From the NCBI GenBank assembly GCA_036172245.1, contig JAYWIR010000008.1, positions 3,162,001 through 3,226,000 of the forward strand: DNA of 64,000 bases, written 5' to 3'. The DNA comes from Raillietiella orientalis. Lineage: Eukaryota. Positions 5,515-34,841 of this stretch are shown here, piece after piece. The notes below the pieces were generated by a model. That model saw nothing but the letters and a program-made list of their open reading frames with translations, did not search any database and was not told the DNA's origin. How positions within the stretch are numbered: the first letter of the stretch is position 1; every line of letters begins with the position of its first letter. A program made the translations under genes and the position numbers.

Positions 5515-5570
5515 TGGGTGGAATGAAGGATATCTGAGAAAACTGTTAGAAATCTGGATGCTCTCACCCA
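5515..5570 (+). promoter_or_regulatory. Eukaryotic SECIS element in the SelH 3' UTR
   Basis: Helix I TGGGTG/CACCCA; core ATGA (5523-5526)...GA (5557-5558); helix II GGATATCTGA/TTAGAAATCT; unpaired AAAA in the apical loop. Starts just after the SelH stop codon. Confidence 0.88.
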
Positions 5571-5987
5571 AGAAGCCATATTGTTTTTTTCATGCAGAAT
5601 TAGAAGGAAATTAATAAAACAAAATCTCGAGATTTTATCCATGAAACTTTACTGACTTTGGATGTGCTTGTATGCTTGCAGCAATTGTTTCTTTTCTCCC
5701 TCCCTCTCCCTCTCCTCTAATGACCTTCATTTTTTATTCAATTTCATTCCTGTTCCCGGAAATTTCATTGAATTAAACACAACCTTACAGCTGTCATGTT
5801 TAAGACATTCGGTATTGCATTAATTTTTTAATCTAGATTTCAGTGTGTGTACATAATTTGTTAATTGCCATTTAAGTTTCATACAATGCAAGTCAGCAAT
5901 CTTGATGAGGATTTTGCAGATTTCTCTAATTACAGGGTGCTAATTGAATAATAACACATGATGTACTAATAAGTTAAGACTGTTAGC

Positions 5988-11858: not shown

Positions 11859-14059
11859 ATTGAAAACTGTAAAATGATTTTTTTTTTTTTTTTTTTGGAG
11901 ATTACGATGGGGGGGGAGGGGGGCGGGGATGGGCGCTTTCCTTCTGCCCTTCCTTTGTTTATAAACCACGTATGCTTACGTGGAAAGGTTTTTCAAGCTG
12001 GGAATCCGTCGGCGCATTTCCTCCCGTTCCACTGGAAGGGTGCGGCTGACCACCATGGCCAAGATGCTCCGGATCCGCAGACTCCTTGTTGAAATGCATT
12101 GTGGCGGGAAATCAGGGATCCGTGCAAACAAGGGAGGGGAGAAACCCTTCCCATCTTGCCCATACCTGGTCGCGGTGCCTCCGAAATCGCGGTGATTCAA
12201 AGAAGTCATGTGACATTTGGGCGAACAAATCGCTGGACATTTTTTTTTTTTTTTTTTCCTTCGAAGTATCTGCAAAGTCGAGGTCTTTGGCAACGTAAAG
12301 GCAAACGCACACGCTGACGCAGGTGGAGAGACGATTTCCATCCTCGTTCAAACTGTATGTTGAGTTTGCCTCCCTGTAGTGCTTGAGAAGGGGGGATCGA
12401 GATGGGAATTCCATCGAATTCAGATGGTAAGGTCTTGCCAACATTACGTTATACTTCCCAGTATATAAAGGATTAGGCATAAAGGAAAAAAGATGGCAGG
12501 TTTGAAAATTGGGATCCCGTCGTGTCTCAGGTCACAAGGTGTGTGCCGTGGCTCATAATCCGAGCATAATCGCGCCTAATCTCACGAAGAGCAAGTCCGG
12601 CCCAGCGCTTTGCTGAACACCCCCATTACGGTGGAGGGCCGCAAGATCATCCCTGTGCAAACGTAATAACCCCAAACAAATTGCAGTCACCGTTAGTGAT
12701 CTCCTCAGGTGGATCGTCGAAGCAAAAGTGTCTACCAATGGAACGCGTCCTGCGGAGGTTCTAATGCTTTCCCTTTTTATTGAACGGTTTGCTTCAGTTT
12801 CCCTGAAAGCAGTGCAAGGCTGTTGGTAACTGCAGGAGCGCTATTCGATCCATCCTTAGTGTTCTCGCAGAATTGGATTTTCTTCCGTTTTTCGCGGCAT
12901 CTTTTCGGGGCCTCCGTGGAGTTCGGCGTGTAAGCCTGAAGACGCTCTTTCAAACTGTGAAGCAACTAGTGCCACTCTTGTTTTATCTTCTGCTCCGCAA
13001 TGGATGTTAAGGGACAATGGACCAGCACAAATGATACGCGGAAAAAATCAAACGCGTATTCGTGAGCTCTGCGATGAAATGCCAAACCTCGGAACAGAGA
13101 GCGGGGCATTTTCTGTGCCACGGAGACCGTGAGGCAGAACACCGGTCTGGACGTTTCGTGGCAGCGGGAGGCTTCCGGCCAGAAAGAATTCGCGTATGCT
13201 CGAGGCTCGAGGGTATCAGCAGACTTTCCAGCAGCGTCGGCTCAATGCGACAGCTGCCAGCATTGCAGACTGCAGCTGTGTGCGTACGAAGAGCACATCG
13301 AGCAGTTCTTTCGAGATTGCGAAGAAACCAAGAGTTTCCCTGTTTGAGTGCAGGAGGGAAGACAACGCGCTTTTGCTCACGTGACGCCTCCAGAAGAAGC
13401 AAGGACAACCTTCACAGCAGGAAGCCGCCGCCAACGGCCATGCGGTGGGGAGTGGTACAAGGGTTGCTGTCAAATGAAACCCCCCTAGCACGTGTGTTGC
13501 GTATCGAGCCTTTGCATTCGTGTCGGAAAGCGACAGAAATCGTGGAACCACTTTGCCACACCGTTGGAGGGAAGTGAGTTCTGCGAGACGGATGGTGGTG
13601 GATTGGCGCGTGCTTGGCCACTGCGGTCCCATCGCACCTTTATCCGGGAGATCACATGGGAAGACACGGGGGGTGGGGGCAGCAAGTCTGTCACACGTTG
13701 CTCCCATTCCCACGGTCACACGGGATGCTCTCCAGTGTTCGTGGACCTAGCTTAGTGGGATAGCTTCGGCAAGCTCCAGGCCAGCTGCAGGTGCCGACTG
13801 TTCGGTGCAAAGCAAAACCTTCCTCTTCGAGCTTACCCATCAATCCACAGCCAGCTGCTGTTTGATTTGCGGCAGCATTTTGTGTGAGATGTGTGGATAT
13901 GTATGTAAGCGAACTAAATAATGCTAAATGAATTTACGCTCCCGTCAGGAGCCGCATTCCATGCCGTCGTCGGAGGCTCTGTGGCTGCTACGGTCTCCGC
14001 ACGTGGCACTACCAGACTCGACGGGCCCTCCCCCCGAAGTGGCAGGAGTCGGCGTTTTT

Positions 14060-14712
14060 GTTGCTGCACTGGGGGCTCCCTAGCAATGCCCACCGATCTC
14101 ACTGGACGAGGGGTGTTGTGGACCCGAACTGCGTCAGGTGTGGGCTACGGGAATCCCTCCTGCACCTGCTTTTTGACTATGTTGCCCTCCGGCCCCTGTG
14201 GTTGCGTTTTGCAACGGCCCTAGGTGCACCTTCGAACGCTCCCAGAGACGTGATTAAGCGCTTCTTTGTGCGCGATGCCCTTTCGTCTGCCCCAGCCCTA
14301 GCAGCGCTTTGCTGCCTACGTGGGATTGTGGAGCGACGCCTGAAGCAACGCCACTGGTGGGCAGCACGATAGGGACGGCATCTGCTCCGCCCTGGGCTTC
14401 CTGAGGACGGCAGCCAGATGGCCCCATCTGGGACATATGCGGATGGACCTTGCCGGCATCCTGGAAAGGCTGTAGAGGACGGCCTGCAGTGGAACGTTAT
14501 CCCTTCCCCAACACCCCCGATTTTGTAAATAGCATTTTCTTTATTTTTCTTTTTGTTTGTCTCCTCCCCCTCCATTGCCGAGCCGAACCTCGCCGGCCTG
14601 CGTGCCAGTGACTCAGCAAGTTCCGAACTCTTTCGGACGTTGTAGGGCCGATGGTCCTACACATGTTTGTTTGTTTGTTTCAAAATAAATCCCCCGGAGC
14701 ACCTGGGTGTCG
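14060..14712 (+). mobile_element. 3' fragment of an L1/Tx1-like non-LTR retrotransposon (zf-RVT domain plus structured 3' UTR)
   Basis: GLPSNAHR...DPNCVRCGLRESLLHLLF matches the zf-RVT CxxC-E-HLLF pattern. It is followed by the family 3' block (..MAPSGTYADGPCRHP..), a T-rich tract, hairpins and AATAAA at 14684-14689. Confidence 0.7.
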
Positions 14713-14714
14713 AA

Positions 14715-15440
14715 ACCAGACGTCGAGGGTTCGAATACCTCGAAACGAATCGACGCAGTGTGCCACGGGTTCGAGTTACTCCTGCAAGATGACGCTGTTT
14801 GGCCTGCATTCATCCGGGTGCGGCGCCGGTAGCAGCTCAAACCGATGAAGGCCGGGACAATGGGAGTCGACCTTCGGGTACTTCCAGCAATCAAGGAGTG
14901 GGAGCTATCCTTCGGTTGAGCAAAGGAGCGGATCCCCCGTTCCGGGGGGACCCTCCGTGGAGTAGGTGTGTCGCCACCACTCAAGAGAATGCAGAGAAAC
15001 GAGGCGATCCTTTCAGGGAGCGACCCTTCAGAGAAATTTGGAAGCTTCCCTCGGAGTCCTCTCCGGAGGAGTAAACAGGAGCGGTTCCCTTCCCGGGGTT
15101 CCCTCCAGAGAAGAAATTCCTACTAGCGGATCCTTTCCGGGTCCCCTTTGGAGAAGAAAAAATGGAGCGGATCCTTCCTGAATGTCCGTCCGGAGAGAAC
15201 AAGGAAGGAGATTCCCTTCGGGGGTTCCCCTTCGGAGACAACCAGAATGGGATCCGGGATCCCTCCCTCTCCATGAGCGAGAGGAGCGGACTCTGAGTCC
15301 TTCCTAGATTCATAGGGCGTTCCCTTCCCGGGGTGCCCCCTATCTTGAAGAATTGCACGCCGCACCCTCGAGTGGCGTGGAACAGCGTGAAAGAGCTGCG
15401 AAAACAGCGAAGAGTGAGAAAAAGGATTTCCCATCATCCC
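14715..15440 (+). mobile_element. SINE-like element X, copy 1 (B-box head, internal ~40-nt hairpin array)
   Basis: Two GGTTCGA motifs at the head, repeated TCCCTTCGGGG-type units and a 3' end ...gcgaaaacag...ccatcatcc. Homologous to inverted copies at 23.2, 43.0 and 51.4 kb. Confidence 0.65.
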
Positions 15441-16794
15441 TCCGTTCTCTTGAATGCTTCAGCATAATGTAAGGCACTAAGCAGGACCAGCAAGCATAGC
15501 CCCATGGAATGCCTCAGGATGTTTATCCACTTAGGCCAAAGAACCCGAGTGCTTTGAGTGATCAAAAAAGGAGCCTCCCAACTACGCATCCTCGAGCAGG
15601 TCCAAATTCTATGCAAAGGAAAGCGAGCTTTGAGGGGGTATTTTGGGCTCTGCAAGAGAACAGATGCTTTAAGTCTGATGATGCTGGGACTATTCAACTA
15701 AAGCACATCTTGATGTCTATATCAGGCACTATTTGAGTCTCTACTCATATCCCGGGAAACAACATTTCGTACCTGCTGGAGCTGCGGATACCTCCATCTC
15801 TAAACAGAAGAGTGTCTACCGCATCTCTTGCGGATTACCTGCTTCGGAGATACATCATACAGCCACATCTCTTGAGAAAGGCCGGATGCAGCTGACTTGT
15901 GTGACAGTGAGCGCATCATGGCAATCGACTGTACGAGGGGAAGCAGGCCTGCCGTGCAGCAACATCTCCCCGGATTGCTGAAGAACGTCATCATGAGATT
16001 CGATGCCAGACGCATCCTACTCCCGCGAAGATTCATGAGTTTCTCCTCAAGAGCTTGCTCTTGCGGAGCGCTGATATCCAACGTTGCCGTGCGCAACCCA
16101 CCCTGAATGCCGCCGCCATTCCTCTTGTTTCCTTCTTGACCGTTCGTCAGCTTTCCCGCCTCAACGCATCCTTCGGTTCCGTTCGTTTTCTCTCCCCCTC
16201 CCCCCTCCCATTCCCGCTAACCCGTTCCGCATGCGAGTTTCCTGCTGAGGTCGCGGGAAAAGCACACATCCCGTCTTTCTTCCAAGTTTGCACATCGGCC
16301 ACGTAGCGAGTGGGGGGATTATCCATCTTCCTATCAGCGTCTTTGGGTGTGCATCTTCTCGACCAGGTCCCTGCACGGGGACCTGGTCGAGCGCCGAAGG
16401 GTGTGCAACGCACGACGTCCAACGACATGCGCGGACGGGATTGCAGGACTCTTTACGAGGTCGGTGGCGCAGCCGCCGGGACCAGCGTTGCTCGTGGTAA
16501 CCGGCCTTCTCCCGCTGCAGCGAGAGGCGCATCTCGTTCCATCAGGAGAGCGTTTGAAGGCGCTCGGAATGAGGCGCAAGAAAGGAAAAAAAACACCAAA
16601 CATCTCTCGAACGCACGCCCTTTGGCCGTGTTTAAGGCATGCATTTACAGGTGCGTGCAAACAAACGGAAATGCTTCCCATACTTAATTGGGCATGTGGG
16701 AGGACACTCATCCTTAAAGACTGCCTCATAAAGAGAAGATAAACATGATGAAGAAAAGAATAGGAGCTGCGTCGATCTACATCCCGAACAATCA

Positions 16795-17535
16795 TTTAAA
16801 AAAATATATATATATTTATCTAGTATATATATTAGTATGTATTGTAAAGATAAAAAAATAAATATATGTGTGTTTCTTATGCATGTTAATATATTTGGAT
16901 TAACGTAGAGATCTATTTTAGCATATATTTACTGATATTTATTTGAACAAACATATTCATAATATAATTCACATGCATTAATATATTATTAATATGCATA
17001 CTAAAGTGTCTAAAAATAAATATATGTGTTTATTACTTACATTAATATGCAGATATTAAATATGCATTAAATGAATATATGAATATCGAAAAGACGATAG
17101 TGACGCCGAATCATTAGAATCAAAAATCACGACGACTTTGAAAAATAGTAGAAGCAAATTAGAACGCAAGCAAATTAAAAAAAAACAAAAAAAAAAAAGA
17201 AATTTGGCATTTAATTTTCCCATCACTCCAACACTCAATGAATAACACTTTCTTTGCAAATTACCAATTATGTTAACCAACTTTCGATCCTTTGATAAAT
17301 ATCCATGTTTATAATTCGATACTTATGTATTCTTTTAATGCTTATTTATTATATACACAGATATCTCAACATATATGACACACACATATATTTGCAATCT
17401 TTCATACACATGTCAATAATATGTCAATACGTATTATTAATAAATATACATAAACAGGAATGAATATTCATGTTGAAGTAAATTTGTGTATGAATCTATC
17501 TATCCAAACTACACAATAAACATATGTACTTATTT
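16795..17535. other. Very AT-rich low-complexity island inside the GC-rich block
   Basis: Abrupt shift to TA/ATAT-rich sequence; no recognisable coding potential or terminal repeats. Confidence 0.6.
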
Positions 17536-17894
17536 TTTGTGACCTTTCTGGATTTCGATCGTATTTTGAAAGGAAGCCGGAAGAACACGGAAGAGCTGCT
17601 GCTTTGTGACGGAAGATGAAAGGAAGCGAAGATCAGTAAGAAACAAAGAAAAGTCGCTCGCAAAGCCATCGAGCATCATCTGAGAAAGCAGGTCGGTCTT
17701 CTGGCCTAGTGTGAGGTCAGGAGACCGACCTATGCTCACGCAGCTCTTCTGAGCCACCCATCAGATCTCCCATTCGTGGAGCCTTCGGAGCTTCCTCGTC
17801 CCGCGGTATTGTGGCGGCTTGGAGTGGATCCGACGAAGCAGAAGATGTTAACGGAAGGGATGCCATGGAGTATGCAGCTCGCTTTCTGCGAATA

Positions 17895-18180
17895 GCATCC
17901 CGATGGCCCCACCTGGGGAATCTGTACCAGGCCCTCGTCGGCATCCTGCAAAGGATGGAAGCTCCACGCAACGGGCAGTGATCCCTTCCCGGCCCTCCAA
18001 TTGACAAGTGTTTGTACTTTTTGTTTTTCCCCCAACCCCATCCGTTGCCATGGAGTGTCAAGTCGGTCTGCGCACCGACCACCCGACAGCTCCACAGAAC
18101 TATTGGCCGCAGCGGGGCCTTGTACCTCAAAGACTGTAAGTTTTTTAAATAAACGCCCCGGCTTGACCGGGTGGAAACGT
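17895..18180 (+). mobile_element. Diverged 3' end of the L1/Tx1-like family
   Basis: gatggccccacctgggga..cggcatcctg..gtgatcccttccc block, T-rich tract, GTCGGT-CTGCGC-ACCGAC hairpin, AATAAA (18148-18153) and CCCGG-CTTGA-CCGGG hairpin. Confidence 0.6.
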
Positions 18181-18613
18181 CCCGGCTCGCCTCGCTCAGG
18201 ACCTTTCCCTTCGAACCGGCCAAAGTTCTCCTTGAGGTGGTCACACGGGTAGCTCCACAAGAGCGGCTGAGTCTGAGATTACCCGAGCGGAAGAGCGTCC
18301 GGATGAAAAAGATCCGAAGGCGCTCACCGCAACCTCACAAAACAGAAAAACCATCCGCGCCGACATTATCTCCTAAGGACGGAGACAGGAGATTGTAAGG
18401 AAGACACGACACAGTTTCACACGGGATCCGAAGTCCCGCTCAGAAAAAAGCGACACAAAACAAACAAAAGGAACACCAATCAGAGAGCACGTGGTATGCG
18501 TGCAGAAAGAAAGAAAAAAAAAAAACAGGACAGCAACCAGTAGGCTGCTCAAAATCCAAAACACCGCAGGAGCCGTGAAATCAAAAGGGTGATGTCTTCT
18601 GGTGACGACCACC

Positions 18614-19822
18614 TCCGATGACGAGGCAAATCCTGAGTAGCAACCACACGACCCTCTGTTTCCACGCCATCGCTTCCGCCTTTCCAAGCCGCTACCCACA
18701 CCCGCAGGCCTCCGGCGGCGCACGGAGTGCGCTTCGCAGCCATCACCCACCGGCATCGAGTCGGCGAGGGTCCAGCCGCTTGGAGGCGGGGCAAGGGTCG
18801 GATCGCCGAGCACGTTCTCGGCGTCCGCCCTTTCGTCCGCCTCCCAACCTCACTCCCAAGCTCCGCGCGTAGAAACCGGCGGTCAGGCACCTTCTCGACG
18901 ACGGGGGGCGACAGCACGCCCGGGACCGCGAACCTCGCGCGCGCACCCTTCGCGCCGAAGACGGGCAGCGGCGCGCCGTTCGCGGACTGCCTGGGGGAGA
19001 GGGCTGGTGGGGAGGAGAGGGGATACCCGCGCGCGCGTGGGAGAGTGCGCCTCCGTCACTCGTGTGCTGAAGCCGGCGCGCGAAGCAGGAGGCGCTCCCG
19101 GTCCGGCGCGGAAAGAAAAGTCACTGTCGGGATGGCGGTTTCCTGTTTGTCATTCGACAGGGACCCGACGCCGTGCGAGCGGGTCCTGGCGACTCCAAGA
19201 GTGCTGGTTACGGCTGCTCATTTGGGTGCGCGTCTCTGTCAAGCTCTCGTCCGATGCCCGAGGATCCGGAAAGTGCTCGCTGCCTTCTCCAGAAGCGTGC
19301 ATGCATCCGATTTCTGGAGCCCATCTCATCCCAAGGATCCATGCACAGCGGCACCCTGTGGGAAGAGGAAGCGTCCTCGTCCCTGAGGAGGAGGGGCAGC
19401 GAGGCGAGTGCGCTTACTGGAATCTCGTCCTCTAGGTGGAGGCGAGCATCTCGTCTTTCGCCGTCGTCCCCTTCAACTCGGCAGAGCTTTCCGGGAGCTC
19501 CCTCTGCAGCTTCCTACGCAGCGCCTTCTCGCGGCTGCACTCCTCTTCAGTCTCCTCCAGCTTCCTCTTGAGGACCTGCATTCTGCTCTTCTCCTGGAAA
19601 GCGCAAAGGGCGGAGGAGCAACAGGGTTGAGCGAGCCCAACAAGCGAGGTCGGAGAGAGGATTCTGCGCGTGTCATTGCCTGGTCCATCTGCTTTCTGCT
19701 CGATGTGAGTTGTTTGCGTTCATCTTGCAGCTCCTGCTTCAAATTCTGGATCTTCTCCTCCTTCTGGTGACAGGCTTCCTGGTTCTGCTGCGCCTCTCTG
19801 GAGACGGTTGGCAGGTGAATGC
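18614..19822. repeat. Outer inverted-repeat arm, left (1209 bp; partner 25759-26967)
   Basis: Near-identical reverse complement of 25759-26967; the ORF track shows identical translations on opposite strands. Confidence 0.97.
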
Positions 19823-21133
19823 CCCGCAGCTAGAAGAAGAAATGCTTACTTCAGTTGAGTTTCCAGCATCTCCCGCAATTCCAATATTCTGCTTTTCAGT
19901 TGCGCCTGTGTTTCCTCTTCTTCCTGGGAGTGGCTGGTTTCCAACTCCTGTTGTTCCATGACTTGTTCGATCTGCTGCTCCAGGCTCTCGATAAGGAAGT
20001 TGTTCTTTTCGGCCTCTATGCTCTTAATTGGAGGTAATCTTCTGAGCTTGTCGACCTTCTTCTGTATCTCGGACATATGAATCTGTAGATCTCTCCGTTT
20101 CTTATCCATCCCTTCCACCATTTTTTCCATGATCCACAGCTGGGCTCGCAGCCCCAAGTTGGCTTTGGAGAGAGAATTCCTTCGAGACGATGCAGAGGTG
20201 AAGAGGGCTTCGCTCTATTCCCCTTTACTTACAATTCGCTCACTTCGGACTCGGCTTCTTTCAGCAGCGTCTGTTGCTCAGTCTCCGCCAACTCCAAACT
20301 CTTTTCCAACTCCGAGATCTTCTCCATCCCTTCCCTTAGAGTGGCTTCACTCTGTATCGTACGATTCTCTTCGTCCACCTTCTCCTGATCTATCTGTTCG
20401 AGGCGTTCCGAGGCGGAGTGAAACTGCAGCTGGCGGTCATACACCTGCAACTGCTCCAGAGAAAGAAAACGACAAGGTGCTGGCTGACCACCTCTACCAA
20501 CCGCCATCAACCTTTAGCTGGTGCAGTTCCTTCAGCACTCCGCTCGCCTGCTTATGCTCGGACTCGAAAGCTTGGCTCAGCTCACCGAGTCGTTGGCTCT
20601 CTTCCTCCAAGCTCTTCTGTGCCTCGATGCGCTTCCGTCGCTCTTCTCCGAGTTCTCCTTCCAGCTTAACCACTGTCTTCAGACGGAACTTCTTCTCGCT
20701 CATGCAATTAGTTTTTCTTCTTCTATGACCTTGCAGAATGGTTTTTTCGTCCCAAAGCTCATGTTTCATCTTCTTCTCTGTATCCAGACACTTCAGCAAA
20801 GTAACTTCTATCCGGTTCGCGTGTTCTCGAAGCTGACGCAAGTCACTCTCATTTGGGGGTCCTTCCTTTCCAGCACTGGTTCCCGACAACTTACTCTGGC
20901 TCATCTGAAAAGGAATCCCAGCGTGAACAAACATCGACGGCTGACACCCCAAACACGGACCCTCTCTTTGTGCGCGCCAACGTCCCGGAACACACAGCGA
21001 CACAGCCGAGAACTCTGGACGGTGCAGGAAGGCAACGTACGGGAATTTTGAGCGTGTCGATTGCGGCACCTTGCTCCTCGCCCTTGCGGATTTCGAACTG
21101 GATTTCAATTCTCCGGCTGCGAGGCGTTTCCAT
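19432..21133 (-). CDS. Motor-less coiled-coil protein with a myosin-II-tail-like C-terminus, paralog A (~437 aa, 6 exons)
   Basis: Exons 21133-21041, 20904-20512, 20450-20233, 20179-19850, 19797-19680 and 19593-19432 join in frame; last intron GC-AG; caccATGG start. The C-terminus DERKQLTSSRKQMDQEKSRMQVLKRKLEETEEECSREKALRRKLQRELPES resembles the end of the non-muscle myosin II rod (..LKRQLEEAEEE..RRKLQRELED). Confidence 0.8.
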
Positions 21134-21540
21134 GGTGACCACGCCTTGTTTGGCCCGTCGGATGCAAAGGTGACGATGGTGGGGTTCGGCTTCTTCTCCT
21201 TCTTTCCAGCTTTTTCGCCCGTCGGGCGGATGCGAGCAACATCCTGCTGCTGTTGGCGGGGCGGCCCAGCTGGTCAGCGCGGAAGGCGGTTCCGCGTGCG
21301 TTTGCGTGACGGCCGTGGGCCGCGCCACCGGAGAAGACCGCGGGCGGAGCGGTGGTGAAAGAGGGCCGTGCCGCAGCGGAGGGATTGCCCGATTTTTTTT
21401 CCTTCCGACGCCGCAACCACCGAGATCCCGATCGAAGTGTCGAGAGACGAAGCTGCCATTTTGGGGGAAGCGACCGGCTTGCCGCTACCCGTTCCCGAGC
21501 GTGGGGGGTTTCCCGTCGGGCTCAACTCGCCCTCTTATCC
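20867..21540. repeat. Inner inverted-repeat arm, left (674 bp; partner 24023-24696)
   Basis: Reverse complement of 24023-24696 with only about two substitutions seen. Covers the upstream region, exon 1, intron 1 and the start of exon 2. Confidence 0.97.
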
Positions 21541-22218
21541 GGTGGTAAGCTTTCAGTGAATGCACGTCTTTTCGCAAGTAAGGATCTGCTTTGTTCGCTT
21601 CTGAGGATGCTTTTATCTGCTGCCTGTCTTGGGAGACTCGGCTTGCCTCTAGGAAACACCAGCTTGATAAGGAAAAGTGCATAGGCGATCAGGACCGTCC
21701 CGAGTTCTCCATGAGGCTGCCGCAGACGTAGGAAAACTAGGAATCATCACTCCCGATGCCAGTGCTATTCCACTTCCGTGATGACAACTGGTGGAAACCG
21801 CCTGCTCATTCGCCCGCAAAAGGAGCATAACCGTAGCCGAGTGTTTGGTTGGATTGGTTGGTGTGTGACGACGACGCTACAGTGACTTCAATACAGAGAC
21901 GACGTGATCGTTGGTGCCTCTTTGTGGCTGTGGAGTGGCTGCCACCGAAACTCACAAGCTGCGCTCCCTCTCAATTCAATCTACCCTCACTGTTAGCTGC
22001 TGGAATGTAGAGATAATCTTTTCGTGTCGCCTTATAAAATGTAAACCCAAAACATTTTCATTTTAAAAACAAAAAAAATTTCAACCTAAACCCAGCCTCA
22101 AACTTTCATATCCCACACCACAGCAACAGCAATGATTCAATTTTAAAGCTGCCGCTCTTCCCTCAGGATCCCTCGAGCAAGAAGGAGTGCCTTTACGAAT
22201 CACTTTTGCCTGGAGGAA

Positions 22219-22571
22219 GTGATTGAACTGGAAGGAGAACTCGGAGAAGAGCGCAGAAGAGCTTGGAGGAAGAGAGCCAACGACTCGGTGAGCTGAGCCA
22301 AGCTTTCGAGTCCGAGCATAAGCAGGCGAGCAGAGTGCCGCAGCAACTGCACGAGCCACCGGTTGATGGCGGTTGGTAGAGGTGGTCAGCCAGCACCTTG
22401 TCGTTTTCTTTCTCTGGAGCAGTTCCAGGTGTATGACCTCCAGCTGCAGCTTTACTCCGCCTCGAAAAACGCCTCGAACAGATAGATCAGGAGAAGATGG
22501 ATGAAGAGAATCCTACGATGCAGAGGGAAGCCATTCTAAAGGAAGGGAAGGAGCAGATCTTAAAGCTGGAA
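22219..22571 (+). pseudogene. Fragmentary third copy of paralog A (end of exon 2, intron 2, start of exon 3)
   Basis: Reverse complement of ~20308-20675 with the intron retained, an internal deletion (gagcg..cagaagagc) and a 2-nt insertion (cgaaaaacg versus cggaacg) that shifts the frame. Confidence 0.88.
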
Positions 22572-23220
22572 TCGGCACGTTTCCTTGGCATGGAAAGTCG
22601 TTGGAAAGTGCAGATTCCATCTGAACTCGATCCTTGGAATAAATTCCTGTTCATCGTTGGCAAACGCGCAGTTCACCATTGGTCGAATTTTTTGCGACAC
22701 GAAACCCTTTCGAACGAAGCGTGCACGTTCCAAGAGGATTGGGTTTGCAGCTCCGAGTGGTCTTCTGAGGGGCTGACCCTTCCGCATTTTCAATAGGGAG
22801 AAAAGCTCACTCGAGACGGATCAGGATTCCCGAAGCACTGGTTACCAAAAAGCTTCTCAAGAGTGGCTTCCTTCCACTCCTAGGAACCGATGCATCGTGG
22901 AATCGGTGAGTCGCGTTGGCAGAAGCTTGCTGCTTTCCCTGCCACCTCCCAGAATCCGTGTAGTGCTTTGTGAACTCTTTGGAGCCATTGTTTGCCGGGT
23001 TGTTTTGTGTTTTTAGCCAGTTTACGTCAACTGGTCACCGCCCGCCTATCGATGCCTTCCAGCATTGGAGCGTCACGCTTTGTCAGCAAGAAACACTGCA
23101 GTTTGATGGACTCCGTGCTTCTTGTATTAGAGACTTCGGTCATGCTAGCAGCTTACCCGAAGTCTTTCCTTTCCGAGTAAGAAAATGCATCACGATTGAA
23201 TGGAATGCAGTCATTATCGG
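22572..23220 (-). mobile_element. Highly decayed CR1/L2-like reverse transcriptase fragment
   Basis: Weak motif remnants in the expected order: ..APQ.. (cf. GVPQG), CAFAND (cf. FADD), RWNLHF..FHAKETC (cf. WxMxFNxxKC). Confidence 0.35.
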
Positions 23221-23224
23221 CCCA

Positions 23225-23720
23225 GGATAATAGGAGTCCTTTGGAGTTCCTCTGTTTTCGCTGCTTTCCTTCTAGCTTTTTTTTCTTCTGGTTTCCTTCG
23301 TTTTGGTTCGCCAAGTGCTGAAGAACCGTCCTCCTCTTCAGAGGTGACTTACGAAGATCTTTGACACCGTTTACACCATCCCAGAGTGTGTGTAACTCTT
23401 CAAGCTAGAGGGTTACTCAGGAGGGACCACCCTGTGAATCCAGGAAGGACTCCGAAAGGACGCTCCCCAATTTCTCTGGAAGGTCGTCCCCCTAAGGGGT
23501 TAGAGTACTTTACACTCTGGGGAGGCAATCATCCAGGGAGCTATCAGAACGCTATGGAGGGTCGTGTCCCGAGGGTCGCATTCTCACAACCGGATGGGAA
23601 CTCCCCCAAGGGAACTGGCTCCGTGATTCTTGGAAGAACCCTGAAAGGTCGACTTCCAATCCTAACCACACAACGGGGGCATCCGGCTTCTACCAGTGCC
23701 GGGCCCGAAACCCGTGGACC
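23225..23720 (-). mobile_element. SINE-like element X, copy 2 (partial, head missing)
   Basis: Shares ttcgctgctttccttct, gtgctgaagaaccg, actcttcaag, ttctcacaaccgg and gaaggtcgacttccaatcct blocks with 42965-43760 and 51400-52175. Confidence 0.7.
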
Positions 23721-24022
23721 ACTTAGAGCCTCAGTGTGTTTAAATGCTCGCTGACAAATGAGGCGGCTCTGCAGCCGTCGGGCACAAACAAATGCTGGTG
23801 AAAAAAGCCTGCAGCGCCCACATTCTTTCACGGAACATGCCCACCTGTATTTTATAGTGTATTTTGTAATTTGTTATTTGAGATGGACATTTTTCTTCTA
23901 AATGGTTGTTATAGTTCGATTCGACTTTAAACATCTCAGACCGCTGCTTGACTTCATTGTGGCCACTCGGAATGTGCCTTCGCGAGTTTCAAGTGGGAAG
24001 GAGACATTAAAAAGTTACCATT

Positions 24023-24696
24023 GGATAAGAGGGCGAGTTGAGCCCGACGGGAAACCCCCCACGCTCGGGAACGGGTAGCGGCAAGCCGGTCGCTTCCCCC
24101 AAAATGGCAGCTTCGTCTCTCGACACTTCGATCGGGATCTCGGTGGTTGCGGCGTCGGAAGGAAGAAAAATCGGGCAATCCCTCCGCTGCGGCACGGCCC
24201 TCTTTCACCACCGCTCCGCCCGCGGTCTTCTCCGGTGGCGCGGCCCACGGCCGTCACGCAAACGCACGCGGAACCGCCTTCCGCGCTGACCAGCTGGGCC
24301 GCCCCGCCAACAGCAGCAGGATGTTGCTCGCATCCGCCCGACGGGCGAAAAAGCTGGAAAGAAGGGGAAGAAGCCGAACCCCACCATCGTCACCTTTGCA
24401 TCCGACGGGCCAAACAAGGCGTGGTCACCATGGAAACGCCTCGCAGCCGGAGAATTGAAATCCAGTTCGAAATCCGCAAGGGCGAGGAGCAAGGTGCCGC
24501 AATCGACACGCTCAAAATTCCCGTACGTTGCCTTCCTGCACCGTCCAGAGTTCTCGGCTGTGTCGCTGTGTGTTCCGGGACGTTGGCGCGCACAAAGAGA
24601 GGGTCCGTGTTTGGGGTGTCAGCCGTCGATGTTTGTTCACGCTGGGATTCCTTTTCAGATGAGCCAGAGTAAGTTGTCGGGAACCAGTGCTGGAAA
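24023..24696. repeat. Inner inverted-repeat arm, right
   Basis: Partner of 20867-21540. Confidence 0.97.
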
Positions 24697-26149
24697 TGAG
24701 CTGTCCAGTTTGGGAGCGGACAGAATATGGATGGACAGGGATATGCTCAAAGAAGAAATCAAGCAGAGGAGCCTTCTTCTGAGTGATTGTGAGAACAGGA
24801 ATATGAGAACGAAAATAAGGCTGCAGAAGATTCGAACCCATATCCAGCAAGAGAAGAAAGAGAAAAGGCAAATTAAGATGGCCATTCGGATTCTGCTCAA
24901 GCAGGAGAATGAACTAAAGAGAGAAATGGAAGAGGAGAAGAGGAAAAGTGCCGAAACTGCTGAAGAGCTGATGATTGTGAATGCGAGAGCACGCAACATA
25001 GAAAAGAAGAAACGTCAAATGAGCAAACGAAGAAAGAGGCAGCTGGTGGAATTGGAGGAACTGAAGGTTGAGTGCGGTTGAAAGACGTGGTCTGCCTGCA
25101 GCTCTTTCTTTCTCTTTCTCGGTGCAGCTGCAGGTGCTAGATCACGCGAAGGAGATGGAACCCGTCACAAATCTCCTCAAGCAAGTGGCTCAGGATCGCG
25201 CGCATCCAGGGGATTTTGAACTGCCGATGGAAGAAGACCTGAGGAAAAACCAAGGAAAGCTCTCGAATCTGACAAATTTGCTGGACATCGTGCAGAAGCA
25301 AGTGATTCTCTCAAAACATGAATTGGAAGAAGAGAGGAAGAAAAGGTGAGGCAGGACTTGGGATGAAACGCTTGGATACTTCTAGTGGCTACTTCGCAGA
25401 ACAAAGCAATTCCAACAGAATAAGGCGCTGAAAAAGTACCTCAAGGTGCTGAAACGTAGGCTGGAAGAGTTGACGAAGGAATGCGAGGATTTAAAGCGTC
25501 AGACTTTAGAGCACATGGCGGAGTACCTTCAGCTCGCCTCAGATAATCTCACGGAGCAATGCTCCAACAGGAGTCAGGTTTCCACACTTCAGATGCTGGA
25601 GGATAAGAATGAGAAACTCATGGAAATGCAACGCAACAAGCAGGCCATGGCGTCACTCATGAGCGCGCAAACATTCGAGCAATCCAGAATGATCGAGAGC
25701 ATGACTTTGCAGATCAAGAAGACGAGGAGGTAAACATGCATGCCCTTTGCGACGCAGTGCGTTCACCTGCCAACCGTCTCCAGAAAGGCGCAGCGGGACC
25801 AGAAAACCTGTCGCAAGAAGGAGAAGGCCATCCAGAATTTGGAGCAGGAGCTGCAAGATGAACGCAAACAACTCACATCGAGCAGAAAGCAGATGGACCA
25901 GGCAATGACACGCGCAGAATCCTCTCTCCGACCTCGCCCGTTGGGCTCGCTCAACCCTGTTGCTCCTCCGCCCTTTGCGCTTTCCAGGTGAAGAGCAGAA
26001 TGCAGGTCCTCAAGAGGAAGCTGGAGGAGACTGAAGAGGAGTGCAGCCGCGAGAAGGCGCTGCGTAGGAAGCTGCAGAGGGAGCTCCCGGAAAGCTCTGC
26101 CGAGTTGAAGGGGACGACGGCGAAAGACGAGATGCTCGCCTCCACCTAG
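24430..26149 (+). CDS. Motor-less coiled-coil protein with a myosin-II-tail-like C-terminus, paralog B (~442 aa, 6 exons)
   Basis: Exons 24430-24522, 24659-25066, 25128-25345, 25400-25729, 25784-25901 and 25988-26149. Intron phases equal those of paralog A, and exons 1, 3, 4, 5 and 6 have identical lengths (93, 218, 330, 118, 162 nt). Confidence 0.8.
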
Positions 26150-26967
26150 AGGACGAGATTCCAGTAAGCGCACTCGCCTCGCTGCCCCTCCTCCTCAGGG
26201 ACGAGGACGCTTCCTCTTCCCACAGGGTGCCGCTGTGCATGGATCCTTGGGATGAGATGGGCTCCAGAAATCGGATGCATGCACGCTTCTGGAGAAGGCA
26301 GCGAGCACTTTCCGGATCCTCGGGCATCGGACGAGAGCTTGACAGAGACGCGCACCCAAATGAGCAGCCGTAACCAGCACTCTTGGAGTCGCCAGGACCC
26401 GCTCGCACGGCGTCGGGTCCCTGTCGAATGACAAACAGGAAACCGCCATCCCGACAGTGACTTTTCTTTCCGCGCCGGACCGGGAGCGCCTCCTGCTTCG
26501 CGCGCCGGCTTCAGCACACGAGTGACGGAGGCGCACTCTCCCACGCGCGCGCGGGTATCCCCTCTCCTCCCCACCAGCCCTCTCCCCCAGGCAGTCCGCG
26601 AACGGCGCGCCGCTGCCCGTCTTCGGCGCGAAGGGTGCGCGCGCGAGGTTCGCGGTCCCGGGCGTGCTGTCGCCCCCCGTCGTCGAGAAGGTGCCTGACC
26701 GCCGGTTTCTACGCGCGGAGCTTGGGAGTGAGGTTGGGAGGCGGACGAAAGGGCGGACGCCGAGAACGTGCTCGGCGATCCGACCCTTGCCCCGCCTCCA
26801 AGCGGCTGGACCCTCGCCGACTCGATGCCGGTGGGTGATGGCTGCGAAGCGCACTCCGTGCGCCGCCGGAGGCCTGCGGGTGTGGGTAGCGGCTTGGAAA
26901 GGCGGAAGCGATGGCGTGGAAACAGAGGGTCGTGTGGTTGCTACTCAGGATTTGCCTCGTCATCGGA
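25759..26967. repeat. Outer inverted-repeat arm, right
   Basis: Partner of 18614-19822. Confidence 0.97.
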
Positions 26968-27127
26968 AGTGATTTTCACCAGGGATTGCTGTCCTGGGTA
27001 CGTGGCTGAGGAGATGGTCGTTGGTTTTCTTAGGTTTGCATTCTATGTGATCTTTCTAGCTCAGGATGCAGTGCATGGTGAGGATGAGGTGGTCCGATAC
27101 TTCTAGGAGCCTCATTGTGGTTGCAAT

Positions 27128-29470
27128 CTATCTTCGACGACCTTGACAAGCTTCCGAGATGGTGTTGGCGTAGTGGCTGCTCAGGGCTTCCCATCTAAAC
27201 GTTTTCAGAAAGCACTGGCTACCTACGTACGGTTGTTTCTTGGGTGACCACAAACATCTAGCCGCGATCTTAATGATTGGAATAAGCACTGCAGTCCACA
27301 AAGTCATTTGAACGTGCTGCTTTTTCTTGACCTGGATGCGTACCGGTTGCTGGTACGAAGATGTCACAGCCATGCACTGCAGAGACGCTACCTCCCCTGC
27401 AGCAAAGAGATCTCCCCTCACATCCAGGCTCGTTCAAAGTGATTGGCTGCTGTCTTCCTGGGTGCAGATTCCGCGCGAGTCTTTTTCTCTGGAGCCATCA
27501 TGGATCTTCGATACCTTGTACAGAGTGAACAACTCCTGGGGCTGCTGCTGGTTCTGCCGCAAGTGCGCTTCTGTGCTTCCTGAGCTGTGTTTGCAACCTA
27601 ACTCGACCTGAAACGCCCTTTTGCAAAAAAGAGGACTTCACCTAGACAAGGGATCCTCTCCGGTGACAGCTCATAAGCCCTGACCCGATCTTGCAAAAGC
27701 ACAGTTTCCAAGCTCTCATCCTGGGAAGGTCTGTTATCCTTTTGAAAACGCTCCAGCGATCAGGAAAGACCACAAGTAGAAGGGATCAAAATGCAACGAG
27801 ATAACTCTCTTCTTTTGAAACCTCTACCGAATCTCAAGGTGCTGTGAAAGCACTGGTGAGTGGATGGTGCTCTAGTATCATGGGATTCTCAGAAATACCC
27901 CAAGATCCTAGGGAATGACCCCTCCAATTTTCGAATAACTCAACGAAAGTCTTTTCTGTGTGCGCATCCCATGTCTTCATTTGTAGGGCTCAATTCAGTT
28001 ATATGCAGGATGGTCACTATCCATACGTAAAGAAGGGTGAAGACTGTGTGGCTGATGTCTCTGTCAGTGTCGATGCCCCCTTCCCACATTTCATATACTC
28101 TAGTCTCCGTTCCCACGAAGAGAGTGCTTCCCTCTGGTCCTATTAACGCACTACATACTGCGCACGCAATAACTGATGATTGCAAATGATTCTTGAAATC
28201 AGCATAAGAGATCTATGCTGTAGGGGAGTTTGTTCTTTAGACCTTAAAGGACTCTTGTGTTTACCAGCATGTGTTCCATTGCTTGTGGTGATTTCAGATC
28301 AAAGTGTATTTATATAAGTGTATTCTCAAGAATTTTCGAAAATTCCGAGAGTGTTCACAGTTGCAAACTTGAATTCGTCCTGGCATGTACTGATGTGGAC
28401 CAAATTTCTTGAGAGCTGAATTTTTGCCTCGGGCAAGGTGTCAAAGAGACTTTCCACTTCCTATGTCAAAGAGTTGCACTTTTCTCAATATGCAGTCCTT
28501 GGAAAATAGATTCTAGAAATCAGTATCAGAAATAGTTTTTCCTACCAACCAGTCATCTTGCAAGGAAAAGTCAAAACTCCAATCTGCACATGTCTTAAAA
28601 TGCTTCTGTACTCCGAAATGGTTGTCGGAGTTGATGAAAGTTTTGCTTTCTAGTTCTGTTAGAATTCTAGGCTTTGAATACTTTCCCTACTGTGAAGATT
28701 CATGTCTTGATTATAGGAATTCGATTTCTACAGTGTCATGAAGTAGGAAAAATGTGTGCTAGAACATCATTTACAACTTTCCAGCTAAATAATTTGTAAA
28801 TTTTTTGTCGTTCTAGGGATTAGAGTCATCAAACAGCACAATTGAATGACGACTTTAGCAGTAATGCATTGTGAACAATGTTATATACATGCAAATATCT
28901 CTACAGATTAGTCAGCTGCATCCAAGAAGTAGGATGCAGTCTCCATTTGTATAGCATTCGTACTCATTCATTGGAATGACTTTCAAATGATATCAGAGTT
29001 GTTTGAAAATCAATTCAGCATCATGACATATACTGTATTTTAATGAATTACTCTAAATCCGTCTCTAATAGTTATATTCCCTTCTGATTACCAGAGTTAA
29101 AAAAAATCTATCATGATTTTGATTTGCATCCAACTGCTATCCATGCTACTTTGAAAAGATATCACATGTTGATCGAATCTGATTGTAATCTGAAACCTAA
29201 AAACAATTATTCCATTCTGAAGAAAGAGATGCAGACTGTAGATCTGATTTCAGTGCATCTTGTATTCCTTTTCTTTTCTTAAAAAAAAAACTTCGGTGAT
29301 CCAATCTTTATCGAATGCATCTAATAATTTGTATACTGTCCTTTTATTAAAAGTATCCTTCAGTACGGATACGCGGATTGATTCCTTGATGATTTTGTAT
29401 ATGGTGTTTGTCGTTAGATGAATGTCAAGATACAAGGATATTAATTTTTCTTGACAACTATTACCTCCGA
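27128..29470 (-). CDS. Probable unidentified spliced gene(s) head-to-head with ATP synthase beta; structure unresolved
   Basis: Several minus-strand open segments bounded by GT/AG sites with short spacers (e.g. GPEGSTLFVGTETRVYEMWEGGIDTDRDISHTVFTLLY|TWDAHTEKTFVELFENW and SKTFINSDNHFGVQKHFKTCADWSFDFSLQDDWL). No family recognised. Confidence 0.3.
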
Positions 29471-29588
29471 AGATTAAACGTGCACTCTCGTGTCAAACAT
29501 GCTGGTAACACCTGCGGCTGAAAGTGGTCTCTGAAGACTGACAAGCGTGCATCTCGTACGTTGCATGGTCAAAGGTGCTGCTAAATAA

Positions 29589-34841
<5,253 letters not shown>

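What the first reader, a model, noticed from the sequence alone, without database searches (positions are those of the whole stretch)
18614..26967. Palindromic pair of motor-less myosin-tail genes with homogenised ends and a hypervariable core
Seen: two intact six-exon genes, A (-) and B (+), diverge from a 2.5-kb spacer. Their upstream region, exon 1 and intron 1 (674 bp) and their last exons plus ~800 bp downstream (1209 bp) are near-identical inverted repeats. The ~1.05-kb middle barely aligns at the protein level, yet exons 3 and 4 have exactly the same lengths (218 and 330 nt), all intron phases match and both frames are open. Known: the shared C-terminus resembles the distal rod of non-muscle myosin II, the region that drives filament assembly; no motor domain is present. 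Inference: arm-to-arm gene conversion keeps regulation and the assembly domain identical while selection excludes conversion from, and diversifies, the central coiled coil. This would give a co-regulated two-component filament system, such as a germline/sperm structural pair, a myosin II assembly modulator or a conflict-driven locus. I do not recognise it as a described family.
Basis: partly seen in the sequence, partly recalled or inferred. Interest (0 to 1): 0.85.

Follow-up and report, generated by a model that had tools for sequence, protein, structure and literature searches.

The report
Inverted pair of headless myosin-tail genes
Two neighbouring genes that point away from each other in an animal genome encode motor-less copies of the tail of non-muscle myosin II; their two ends are almost identical while their middles have diverged almost beyond recognition, a clear but not unprecedented case of partial gene conversion between duplicated genes.

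Summary
Two inverted-repeat blocks (674 nt with 2 mismatches; 1125 nt with 3) flank a ~1.05-kb core that is only 30-58% identical in DNA and 67 of 312 aligned residues in protein. Both copies keep open frames, identical exon lengths (218, 330, 118, 162 nt) and matching splice sites, including a shared GC-AG intron.

Both proteins (A 406 aa, B 411 aa from the exon-2 ATG) are colinear with the last ~330-350 rod residues of non-muscle myosin II. Exon 6 corresponds to the assembly competence domain. No motor exon lies in the window.

New points:
- A is acidic (pI 5.7) and B basic (pI 9.7).
- The heptads are kept but myosin's 28-residue charge repeat is lost.
- The identical arms are GC- and CpG-enriched.
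- A third A-like fragment sits in the spacer.
- Replacement changes outnumber silent ones where divergence is unsaturated.

Best reading: truncated myosin II tail paralogues with ends homogenised by gene conversion between inverted repeats and an old, probably positively selected core. Expression, organism, other genomic copies and function could not be tested. This is a new variant of known kinds, of moderate interest.

The parts
18599..19827 (-). 3' arm of gene A: end of intron 4, exon 5, intron 5, exon 6 and 818 nt downstream of the stop codon
   Evidence: Inverted repeat I1. Mismatch list. GC 0.667 and CpG o/e 1.09 downstream of the stop.
19432..20904 (-). Gene A coding exons 2-6 (20904-20512, 20450-20233, 20179-19850, 19797-19680, 19593-19432). 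406 aa, net charge -10, pI 5.70.
   Evidence: Model and splice sites. Open frame. Colinear with the myosin II tail profile, 65.6 bits. Charge.
19594..19679 (-). Intron 5 of A, 86 nt, GC-AG, phase 0
   Evidence: Splicing here gives an ungapped match to myosin II across the junction.
20864..21558 (-). 5' arm of A: first 12-13 codons of exon 2, intron 1, candidate exon 1 (21133-21041) and the upstream region
   Evidence: Inverted repeat I2. 2 mismatches in 674 nt. GC 0.62, CpG o/e 1.16. Exon 1 is inferred.
21559..24004 (.). Unique spacer between the two 5' arms (2446 nt). It holds a piece of a dispersed repeat at 23238-23448.
22210..22577 (+). Third, partial A-like copy: end of exon 2, intron 2 and most of exon 3, with a 19-nt deletion that breaks the frame
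   Evidence: I3/I4 at 94% and 88%. tblastn, alignment, blastn 86% over 381 nt. Intron 2 is 61 of 61 identical to A.
24005..24699 (+). 5' arm of B: upstream region, candidate exon 1 (24430-24522), intron 1 and the first 12-13 codons of exon 2
24659..26149 (+). Gene B coding exons 2-6 (24659-25066, 25128-25345, 25400-25729, 25784-25901, 25988-26149). 411 aa, net charge +23, pI 9.67.
   Evidence: Model. Open frame. Colinear with the myosin II tail profile, 30.9 bits. Charge.
25067..25127 (+). Intron 2 of B (61 nt, same length as in A at 20451-20511). It is the best-conserved piece of the core.
   Evidence: 77% identical between A and B, against 52-57% for the flanking exons. No significant RNA fold.
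25902..25987 (+). Intron 5 of B, 86 nt, GC-AG, phase 0
25988..26149 (+). Exon 6: 53 codons plus TAG. It is homologous to the assembly competence domain region of non-muscle myosin II.
   Evidence: Pfam. Myosin-10 residues 1877-1917. ACD = 1875-1903 of MHC-IIB (PMC2204051, passages read).
25754..26982 (+). 3' arm of B. 25754-25842 is a graded edge (15 mismatches in 89 nt); beyond it there are 3 mismatches in 1125 nt.

Best explanation
A and B are a head-to-head pair of paralogous genes. They arose by DNA-level duplication of the 3' part of a non-muscle myosin II heavy-chain gene. That part covers the last ~330-350 rod residues, up to and including the assembly competence domain, and lacks the motor, the neck and the non-helical tailpiece. 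Each encodes a heptad-repeat coiled-coil protein of about 410 aa, or about 440 aa if the candidate exon 1 is used.

Two segments are near-identical inverted repeats a few kb apart. The first holds the promoter region, exon 1, intron 1 and the first 12 codons. The second holds the last 20 codons of exon 5, intron 5, exon 6 and at least 818 nt downstream. They are kept at about 99.7% identity by intrachromosomal gene conversion.

The 1.05-kb core is too diverged for conversion to start. It has evolved separately for a long time, at least partly under positive selection that changed charge. This gave one acidic and one basic protein.

Inferred, not shown: the two proteins are made from the same regulatory sequence. 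They dimerise as coiled coils. They use the shared myosin-like C-terminus to dock on each other or on myosin II filaments, rather than building myosin-type filaments themselves.
For: Shown here:
- Arms and core are as described.
- Both cores are open in frame, and 0 of 20,000 shuffles of each are. Exon lengths, phases and splice sites match.
- Spliced A residues 71-386 align to a horseshoe-crab non-muscle myosin at 1589-1905 (31% over 328 columns, E 3e-16). B residues 253-391 align to 1670-1809 of another (37%, E 6e-14).
- Against my profile of 106 myosin II tails, A scores 65.6 bits (A 65-389 to profile 132-458) and B 30.9 bits (43-394 to 105-458). The best of 50 shuffles each scored -25.7 and -29.3.
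- Exon 6 matches Myosin-10 residues 1877-1917. The ACD is 1875-1903 (PMC2204051).
- In 3 of the 10 short myosin-like library hits (P0005, P0007, P0010) the match begins at the residue equivalent to the first residue of exon 6, right after pyrimidine-codon residues ending in Q. I infer an intron at the same place in other animals' myosin II genes.
- tblastn of 7 full-length myosins finds only exons 5-6 of A and B. Of 149 other ORFs of at least 100 aa, 0 hit a myosin head.
- Heptad score: A 210.5 against 125.3+-11.5 for shuffles; B 222.0 against 138.3+-8.4.
- Arms have GC 0.62-0.67 and CpG o/e 1.09-1.16. Core, spacer and outer flanks have GC 0.47-0.50. GC3 is 0.81 in the converted codons and 0.61-0.62 in the core. 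This is as expected from GC-biased conversion.
- Edge zone of exon 5: 11.5 replacement against 0.5 synonymous differences. By my count from the alignment, 9 of the 10 amino-acid differences change charge.
- A against the spacer fragment: replacement 23 of 222.7 sites, synonymous 3 of 56.3, intron 0 of 61. Pooled replacement against silent gives Fisher p 0.0012 with introns and 0.037 without.
- A has net charge -10 and pI 5.70. B has +23 and pI 9.67.
- Exon-2 coils of A and B folded together gave weak support: score 0.58, best of 3 controls 0.00, partner pLDDT 89, runs agreeing in at least 99% of contacts. The mark was reached by 51 of 78 solved complexes and 2 of 108 mismatched pairs. At 0.60 or under it was reached by only 5 of those 78 and by all 4 mismatches that passed.
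Against: - No expression evidence of any kind, so splice sites, exon 1 and the GC-AG intron are predictions.
- No AATAAA or ATTAAA within 1.4 kb downstream of either stop.
- No relative of exon 2 or exon 6 beyond ordinary myosins in the protein libraries. Conservation in other species is therefore unknown.
- Long-term conversion cannot be told apart from a recent copy-and-replace event without other genomes.
- The selection signal rests on few changes. A against the fragment alone, without the intron, gives p 0.19. The exon 5 zone alone gives p 0.087. The perfect intron 2 could itself be a micro-conversion tract.
- Over the core, dS is saturated and nominal dN/dS is below 1.
- Genuine myosin tails show 28-residue charge periodicity (p < 0.002). 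A does not (p 0.77 and 0.68) and B only weakly (p 0.29 and 0.05). Myosin-like filament formation is therefore doubtful.
- Counts of e-g' ionic pairs give no preference for A/B over A/A or B/B.
- The complex score is weak, coiled coils resemble solved structures, and no A/A or B/B job could be run for comparison.
Confidence: 0.6

Rival explanations
1. Chimeric origin. One gene unit was copied in inverted orientation recently, which would explain the ~99.7% arms. The core of one copy was then replaced in a single event by the core of a distant family member located elsewhere in the genome. There has been no long-term concerted evolution.
For: Three of the four arm edges are sharp, within about 20 nt. 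The 86%-type graded zone in exon 5 could be the homology anchor of one replacement tract. The locus has clearly been rearranged, since a third A-like fragment lies in the spacer. In the core, A is no closer to B (47 of 245) than to ordinary myosins (53-64 of 245).
Against: The arms are markedly GC- and CpG-richer than the core, spacer and outer flanks, which needs time under biased conversion. An island of intermediate identity at intron 2 (77%) suggests more than one exchange of different age. No second B-like sequence is in the window. The rest of the genome could not be searched.
Confidence: 0.2
2. Decaying or non-functional duplicates: relics of a partial myosin II duplication that are not expressed as proteins.
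For: No expression data (none was listed). No canonical poly(A) signal. Replacement changes are at least as frequent as silent ones. The myosin charge periodicity is lost. No homologues were found in the libraries.
Against: Both cores have stayed open over about 300 codons each despite saturation divergence, and 0 of 20,000 shuffles are open. Exon lengths and all splice sites are kept in both copies. Heptad periodicity is far above shuffles. The one true relic in the locus, the spacer fragment, shows what decay looks like: a frame-breaking 19-nt deletion.
Confidence: 0.08
3. The exons are the 3' end of a larger gene, such as a full myosin, whose upstream exons lie elsewhere.
For: Exon 2 is preceded by a good acceptor, so at least one upstream exon exists. 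The true transcription start is unknown.
Against: The genes diverge from each other, so the upstream side of each is the spacer and then the other gene. tblastn with 7 full myosins finds no head or proximal rod exon in 64 kb. The only other hits, at 62843-62986(-), have E 0.1-0.4, and that ORF has no Pfam match. The first 42-64 residues are not myosin-like. The ATG at 24430 has a strong start context and reads in phase into exon 2.
Confidence: 0.05
4. Assembly or polishing artefact. The near-identity of the arms, or the inverted arrangement itself, was produced by mis-assembly or by cross-mapped reads during consensus polishing.
For: It could not be tested, because no reads were available. Perfect 978-nt identity is what cross-polishing can produce.
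Against: A collapse or haplotype fusion gives uniformly similar copies. It does not give ~100% arms around a 50% core with both frames intact. The arm edges are graded, at 83% over 89 nt, then 3 mismatches in 1125 nt. The two arms retain 5 fixed differences. The outer flanks are unrelated.
Confidence: 0.04

Closest known systems
Rod (tail) of non-muscle myosin II heavy chain (Pfam PF01576 Myosin_tail_1), including its assembly competence domain
   Same: Colinear homology over about 330-350 residues ending at the ACD. Continuous heptad repeat. An intron just before the ACD-encoding exon, as inferred for other animals' myosin II genes.
   Different: No motor, neck or proximal rod in the window. 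A novel N-terminus. The protein ends about 20 residues after the ACD match, with no detectable tailpiece. The 28-residue charge periodicity is lost. Identity to real myosins is only 15-27% in the core. Single exons stay below Pfam's cut-off.
Naturally headless myosin-rod proteins: paramyosin and miniparamyosin of invertebrates, and the Drosophila myosin rod protein (recalled from general knowledge, not checked in any call)
   Same: These are proteins made only of myosin-type coiled coil, which act with myosin filaments.
   Different: As recalled, those derive from muscle-type rods or from an internal promoter of the muscle myosin gene, and are single genes. Here the source is the non-muscle type (the hits). 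The product is a divergent acidic/basic pair in an inverted repeat. No comparison with paramyosin sequences was run.
Duplicated genes under interlocus gene conversion with a 'peak of divergence' (red/green opsin case; Teshima and Innan model; review PMC3924837, passages read)
   Same: Low divergence in the converted flanks and high divergence where differences are kept. Sharp tract edges.
   Different: Here the peak is the whole 1-kb core at saturation rather than a few sites. The repeats are inverted rather than tandem. The converted parts are mostly non-coding plus one domain.
Sex-chromosome palindromes with arm-to-arm gene conversion (recalled; PMC11168930 and bioRxiv 10.1101/2024.04.02.587783 seen only in the search listing)
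   Same: Inverted arms around a unique spacer, with near-identity maintained by conversion.
   Different: This structure is tiny (8.4 kb against tens of kb to Mb). Its arms are interrupted by a non-homologous core inside the gene. The chromosome and the expression pattern are unknown.

Membership tests
Myosin II heavy chain | N-terminal motor (Myosin_head) domain and IQ neck | tested here: not met
   tblastn of 7 full-length non-muscle myosins against the window found only exons 5-6 of A and B. 0 of 149 other ORFs of at least 100 aa hit Myosin_head.
Myosin_tail_1 (PF01576) coiled-coil rod | Significant match to the family profile | tested here: inconclusive
   Only exons could be submitted. 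1 of 8 exon translations hit it (exon 6: E 9.1e-9, 34.2 bits, cut-off 38.1). With my own profile of 106 myosin II tails the spliced proteins score 65.6 bits (A) and 30.9 bits (B), against at most -25.7 for 100 shuffles.
Myosin_tail_1 (PF01576) coiled-coil rod | Continuous heptad repeat | tested here: met
   The Viterbi heptad score is 7-10 sd above 30 shuffles. There are 2 register breaks in A and 3 in B.
Myosin II rod as filament former | 28-residue (and 28/3) periodicity of charged residues | tested here: not met
   Two real tails give p < 0.002 for positive charges at periods 28 and 9.33 and for negative charges at period 28. A gives p 0.77 and 0.68 at period 28; B gives p 0.29 and 0.05 (500 shuffles each).
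Myosin II rod as filament former | Assembly competence domain near the C-terminal end of the coil | tested here: met
   Exon 6 residues 3-43 align to Myosin-10 residues 1877-1917. The ACD of MHC-IIB is 1875-1903 (PMC2204051). Function was not tested.
Myosin II rod as filament former | Net positive C-terminal ~186 residues and a non-helical tailpiece | tested here: inconclusive
   Net charge of the last 186 aligned residues is -2 for A and +14 for B, but -2 to -5 for three arthropod myosins over the equivalent stretch. No tailpiece homology was found after the stop.
Palindrome maintained by arm-to-arm gene conversion | Inverted arms of very high identity around a unique spacer | tested here: met
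   2 mismatches in 674 nt and 3 in 1125 nt, with a spacer of 2446 nt.
Palindrome maintained by arm-to-arm gene conversion | Concerted evolution shown by comparison with other species or individuals | not testable with these tools
   No genome, reads or related loci were available. GC enrichment of the arms is only indirect support.
Duplicates with a selected peak of divergence under conversion | Excess of replacement over silent divergence at the peak | tested here: inconclusive
   The core is saturated (pS 0.70). In the unsaturated comparisons, pooled replacement against silent gives p 0.0012 with introns and 0.037 without. Single comparisons give p 0.19 and 0.087.

The most novel reading that the evidence does not exclude
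A lineage-specific, fast-evolving two-protein system built from headless non-muscle myosin II tails. An acidic and a basic coiled coil are made from identical promoters. They share a conversion-protected assembly competence domain through which they dock on myosin II filaments or on each other. Their charge-diverged cores are driven by positive selection, as in reproductive or genetic-conflict proteins. Gene conversion and selection would here divide one gene into a frozen docking module and a free-running specificity module.
Probability: 0.15. Interest if true: 0.8.

Novelty: new variant of a known kind. Interest (0 to 1): 0.5.

Why it matters
If the genes are expressed, they would be natural tail-only derivatives of non-muscle myosin II that keep the assembly competence domain. 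Cell biologists make constructs of this kind artificially to probe or poison filament assembly. An acidic/basic natural pair could show how filament docking is separated from filament building.

For genome evolution, the locus is a compact and clean example of a gene split into segments that evolve in concert and a segment that escapes and diverges. The expected GC enrichment is confined to the converting parts. It could serve to measure conversion tract limits and the identity threshold for conversion.

None of this changes a major view unless expression and binding are shown.

Tried and rejected
- Whole-genome search: no genome is held for this window.
- Sequencing runs for 18400-27200: none was listed and no RNA holder was listed.
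- Earlier findings by place, sequence and words: nothing.
- Word-based homologue searches with exon 6 (longer proteins) and exon 2 of B (near lengths): no hit.
- HMMER of exon 6 against 1.84 billion representatives: 11 hits at E <= 0.001. Ten are short fragments of ordinary invertebrate-type myosin II ends. One (P0001) is a 1080-aa repetitive protein that matched only the last 25 residues 13 times; I treat it as a chance match. No orthologue was found.
- ESM Atlas with exon 2 of B: best score 0.89, recognition 1645. Uninformative.
- Rfam on the window: 0 matches.
- Intron 2 as a structured RNA or mirtron: z +1.0 and +1.3, rejected.
- e-g' ionic pair counts in the core: A/A 7 attractive and 4 repulsive of 42; B/B 6 and 3 of 42; A/B 11 and 6 of 60. 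No preference.
- Reading past the stop through a donor-like site 14 nt downstream into a possible seventh exon: no similarity to myosin tailpieces.
- Weak motor-like tblastn hits at 62843-62986(-), E 0.1-0.4: the ORF has no Pfam hit, so rejected.
- Literature searches for headless or tail-only myosin II paralogues and for the Drosophila myosin rod protein returned nothing on such a gene family. These searches cover only the open-access library.
- Identifying the organism was not possible beyond 'animal'. The ATP synthase beta exon scores best against mammalian mitochondrial chains, 457 bits against 413-420 for yeast. Its 247-codon exon and the 52-86-nt introns suggest a non-vertebrate (my inference).

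Full report
**1.

The two longest inverted repeats in the 64-kb window are 18599-19827 / 25754-26982 (1229 nt, 98%) and 20864-21558 / 24005-24699 (695 nt, 99%).

Base by base:
- The 5' block 24023-24696 (674 nt) has 2 mismatches.
- The 3' block 25843-26967 (1125 nt) has 3 mismatches, with none in its last 978 nt.
- Three of the four block edges fall from about 100% to background within about 20 nt.
- The fourth edge (25754-25842) is graded, with 15 mismatches in 89 nt.
- The outer flanks and the 2446-nt spacer do not align.

Between the blocks, identity is 28-58% per 50 columns. That is barely above shuffles: exons 2-4 score 0.52-0.57 against 0.48-0.50.

**2. Both copies look like intact genes.**

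I could place five coding exons in each copy, with AG acceptors and GT donors. Exons 3, 4, 5 and 6 are 218, 330, 118 and 162 nt in both copies, and all phases match.

Intron 5 (86 nt) has a GC donor in both copies. Splicing there restores an ungapped match to myosin II across the junction, which I take as support for the model.

The proteins are 406 aa (A) and 411 aa (B) from the ATG at the start of exon 2. That ATG follows an acceptor, so there is an upstream exon. The best candidate (24430-24522 in B, 21133-21041 in A) starts at an ATG in a strong context and ends in phase 0 at GTACGT, adding 31 residues. This exon is an inference.

The diverged cores carry no in-frame stop over 905 and 920 nt, against 13-22 stops in the other frames. 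None of 20,000 shuffles of either core is open.

No transcript evidence could be obtained: no run was listed and no genome is held. No AATAAA or ATTAAA lies within 1.4 kb of either stop.

**3. What the genes are.**

- Of eight exon translations, only exon 6 hits a Pfam family. The hit is Myosin_tail_1 at profile positions 1029-1064 of 1081 (E 9.1e-9, 34.2 bits, just under the 38.1 cut-off).
- Against solved structures, exon 6 matches Myosin-10 residues 1877-1917, then Myosin-9 and Myosin-11 (5 sequences at E <= 0.01).
- The assembly competence domain of human MHC-IIB is residues 1875-1903, inside a net-positive region 1748-1931 (PMC2204051, passages read). That domain is described as necessary for, and in vitro sufficient for, assembly of tail fragments (PMC11257479, passages read). 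Exon 6 is therefore essentially the ACD exon.
- An exhaustive HMMER search with exon 6 found no orthologue. It returned ten short fragments of invertebrate-type myosin II ends plus one repetitive chance match.
- In three of those ten fragments the myosin sequence begins exactly at the residue equivalent to the first residue of exon 6, preceded by pyrimidine-codon residues ending in Q. This is what an ORF reading out of an intron looks like. I infer that the intron 5 position is inherited from a myosin II gene.
- I fetched full-length non-muscle myosins and compared them locally with the spliced proteins. A residues 71-386 align to residues 1589-1905 of a 1973-aa myosin (31%, E 3e-16). B residues 253-391 align to 1670-1809 of another (37%).
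- A profile of 106 myosin II tails aligns A 65-389 to positions 132-458 (65.6 bits) and B 43-394 to positions 105-458 (30.9 bits), almost without gaps. One hundred shuffles score at most -25.7.

The whole of both proteins, not only the C-terminus, is a copy of the distal myosin II rod. It has a new N-terminus and ends about 20 residues after the ACD match.

No motor or proximal rod exon is in the window. Among 149 other ORFs of at least 100 aa, only six have Pfam hits (Surp, Cob_adeno_trans, three ATP synthase beta pieces, SAM), and none is a myosin head or transposon protein.

**4. How the copies relate.**

In the core, A and B share 67 of 312 aligned residues. Synonymous sites are saturated (pS 0.70, dS about 2) and dN is 0.94.

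On the myosin profile columns, A-B identity (47 of 245) is no higher than A-myosin identity (53-64 of 245). B is the more derived copy, at 36-52 of 245 to myosins. The cores are therefore very old or very fast.

The last 72 codons differ at one residue. The introns and about 1.4 kb of flanking non-coding DNA are as identical as the exons. The ends were therefore homogenised at the DNA level.

Two observations favour repeated conversion over a single recent copy:
- The identical blocks have GC 0.62-0.67 and CpG o/e 1.09-1.16. The core, spacer and outer flanks have GC 0.47-0.50. GC3 is 0.81 in the converted codons against 0.61-0.62 in the core. Biased gene conversion would leave this trace.
- There are zones of intermediate identity: the exon 5 edge at 83%, and intron 2 at 77% inside a ~50% core.

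At about 50% identity the core cannot prime conversion, so no special selection against conversion there is needed. This pattern of converted flanks and a peak of divergence is the one reviewed in PMC3924837 (passages read).

I cannot exclude that one event replaced a core from a third paralogue, because the rest of the genome was out of reach.

**5. A third copy.**

The spacer holds a partial A-like copy on the + strand (22210-22577). It covers the end of exon 2, intron 2 and most of exon 3, is 86-94% identical to A, and has a 19-nt deletion that breaks the frame. The locus has been rearranged more than once.

**6. Signs of selection.**

Where divergence is not saturated, replacement changes dominate.
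- In the first 20 codons of exon 5 there are 11.5 replacement and 0.5 synonymous differences. By my count from the alignment, 9 of the 10 amino-acid differences change charge, with a net shift of +5 in B.
- Between A and the spacer fragment there are 23 replacement differences on 222.7 sites, 3 synonymous on 56.3 sites and 0 in the 61-nt intron.
- Pooled, replacement against silent gives p 0.0012 with introns and 0.037 with synonymous sites only.
- Taken singly the tests are weak: p 0.19 and p 0.087.
- The perfect intron 2 may be a micro-conversion tract rather than a neutral yardstick. It has no notable RNA fold.

I read this as suggestive, not proven, positive selection.

**7. Properties of the proteins.**

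- Both have long, nearly unbroken heptad repeats, 7-10 sd above shuffles.
- A is acidic (net -10, pI 5.70) and B is basic (net +23, pI 9.67). The shift is spread over exons 2-5.
- Real myosin II tails show the 28-residue charge periodicity (p < 0.002). A does not and B barely does. I therefore doubt that they build myosin-type staggered filaments by themselves.
- Counts of e-g' pairs do not favour A/B over A/A or B/B.
- One complex job on the exon-2 coils of A and B gave weak support. The score was 0.58, the best of 3 controls 0.00, the partner pLDDT 89, and the runs agreed in at least 99% of contacts. The mark was reached by 51 of 78 solved complexes and 2 of 108 mismatches, but at 0.60 or under by only 5 of the 78 and by all 4 passing mismatches.
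- Coiled coils resemble solved structures and no homodimer job was possible. This says little beyond 'two helices that can pair'.

**8. Mechanism I commit to.**

Shown: truncated myosin II tail paralogues, inverted, with DNA-level homogenised ends and an old charge-diverged core.

Inferred, at about 60% for the evolutionary part: ongoing conversion between the inverted blocks keeps the promoter region and the ACD exon identical, while the core is beyond the reach of conversion.

Inferred, at about 25-30% for the functional part: co-expressed dimeric coiled coils use the ACD-like end to dock on myosin II filaments or on each other and so modulate assembly.

Rivals are a one-step chimera (0.2), non-functional relics (0.08), terminal exons of a larger gene (0.05) and an assembly artefact (0.04).

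**9. Novelty.**

Headless myosin-rod proteins and mosaic gene conversion are both known. The first I recall from general knowledge. The second is documented in PMC3924837.

My library searches for tail-only myosin II paralogues found none, and no sequence relative appeared. The combination seen here appears undescribed within those limits. It comprises a non-muscle-type tail, an acidic/basic pair, a small interrupted palindrome and GC-enriched converting blocks.

I rate it a new variant of known kinds, interest 0.5. Expression, species range and binding are all open.

Noticed in passing
window 20451-20511 (-), 25067-25127 (+), 22362-22422 (+): Intron 2 is the best-conserved part of the core. 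It is 61 nt in all three copies, 61 of 61 identical between A and the spacer fragment and 77% identical between A and B, while the flanking exons differ by 10-50%. It has no significant RNA fold. It could be a micro-conversion tract or a constrained element; this is unexplained.
   Followed up: partly
window 26164-26225 (+) and its mirror in A: A consensus-like donor (CCA|GTAAGC) lies 14 nt after the stop codon. Strong acceptors lie 36 and 62 nt further on, and a 48-codon open frame follows in the matching phase. This may be a 3'-UTR intron or a relic of the parental gene's next exon. The peptide shows no similarity to myosin tailpieces.
   Followed up: partly
window 32983-34743 (+): A mitochondrial-type ATP synthase beta gene lies in an AT-rich, CpG-poor block. 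One exon is 247 codons long. Its best solved relatives are mammalian chains (457 bits).
   Followed up: partly
window 9764-10870 (+) and 11265-11858 (+): An ORF with a Surp module followed by an arginine/serine/histidine-rich tail, and an ORF with a cobalamin adenosyltransferase domain. These are probably exons of two ordinary genes left of the locus.
   Followed up: partly
window 12001-28000 and 36001-62000 against 1-6000 and 28001-36000: The window alternates between GC-rich, CpG-rich blocks (GC 0.50-0.54, CpG o/e 0.90-0.92) and AT-rich, CpG-poor blocks (GC 0.33-0.36, CpG o/e 0.50-0.53). The GC-rich blocks have many long ORFs on both strands. Only one of these outside the A/B locus has a Pfam hit (a SAM domain). 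These blocks share dispersed repeats, for example 48279-48632 / 14356-14697 and 51400-52171 / 42967-43758.
   Followed up: partly
window 59515-59892 (+): An ORF with a SAM (sterile alpha motif) domain, E 2e-10. It is probably an exon of another gene.
   Followed up: no
window 45911-46233, 48040-48649, 399-569 / 4026-4196: Further small inverted repeats: a self-complementary 324-nt stretch (86%), a 190-nt pair 230 nt apart (79-82%) and a 171-nt pair 3.5 kb apart (82-87%). An exact 80-nt direct repeat lies at 45834-45913 / 46740-46819.
   Followed up: no
window 62843-62986 (-): Four of seven myosin queries gave a weak tblastn hit (E 0.1-0.4) of motor residues ~553-605 to this ORF. There is no Pfam support, so it is probably chance.
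   Followed up: yes
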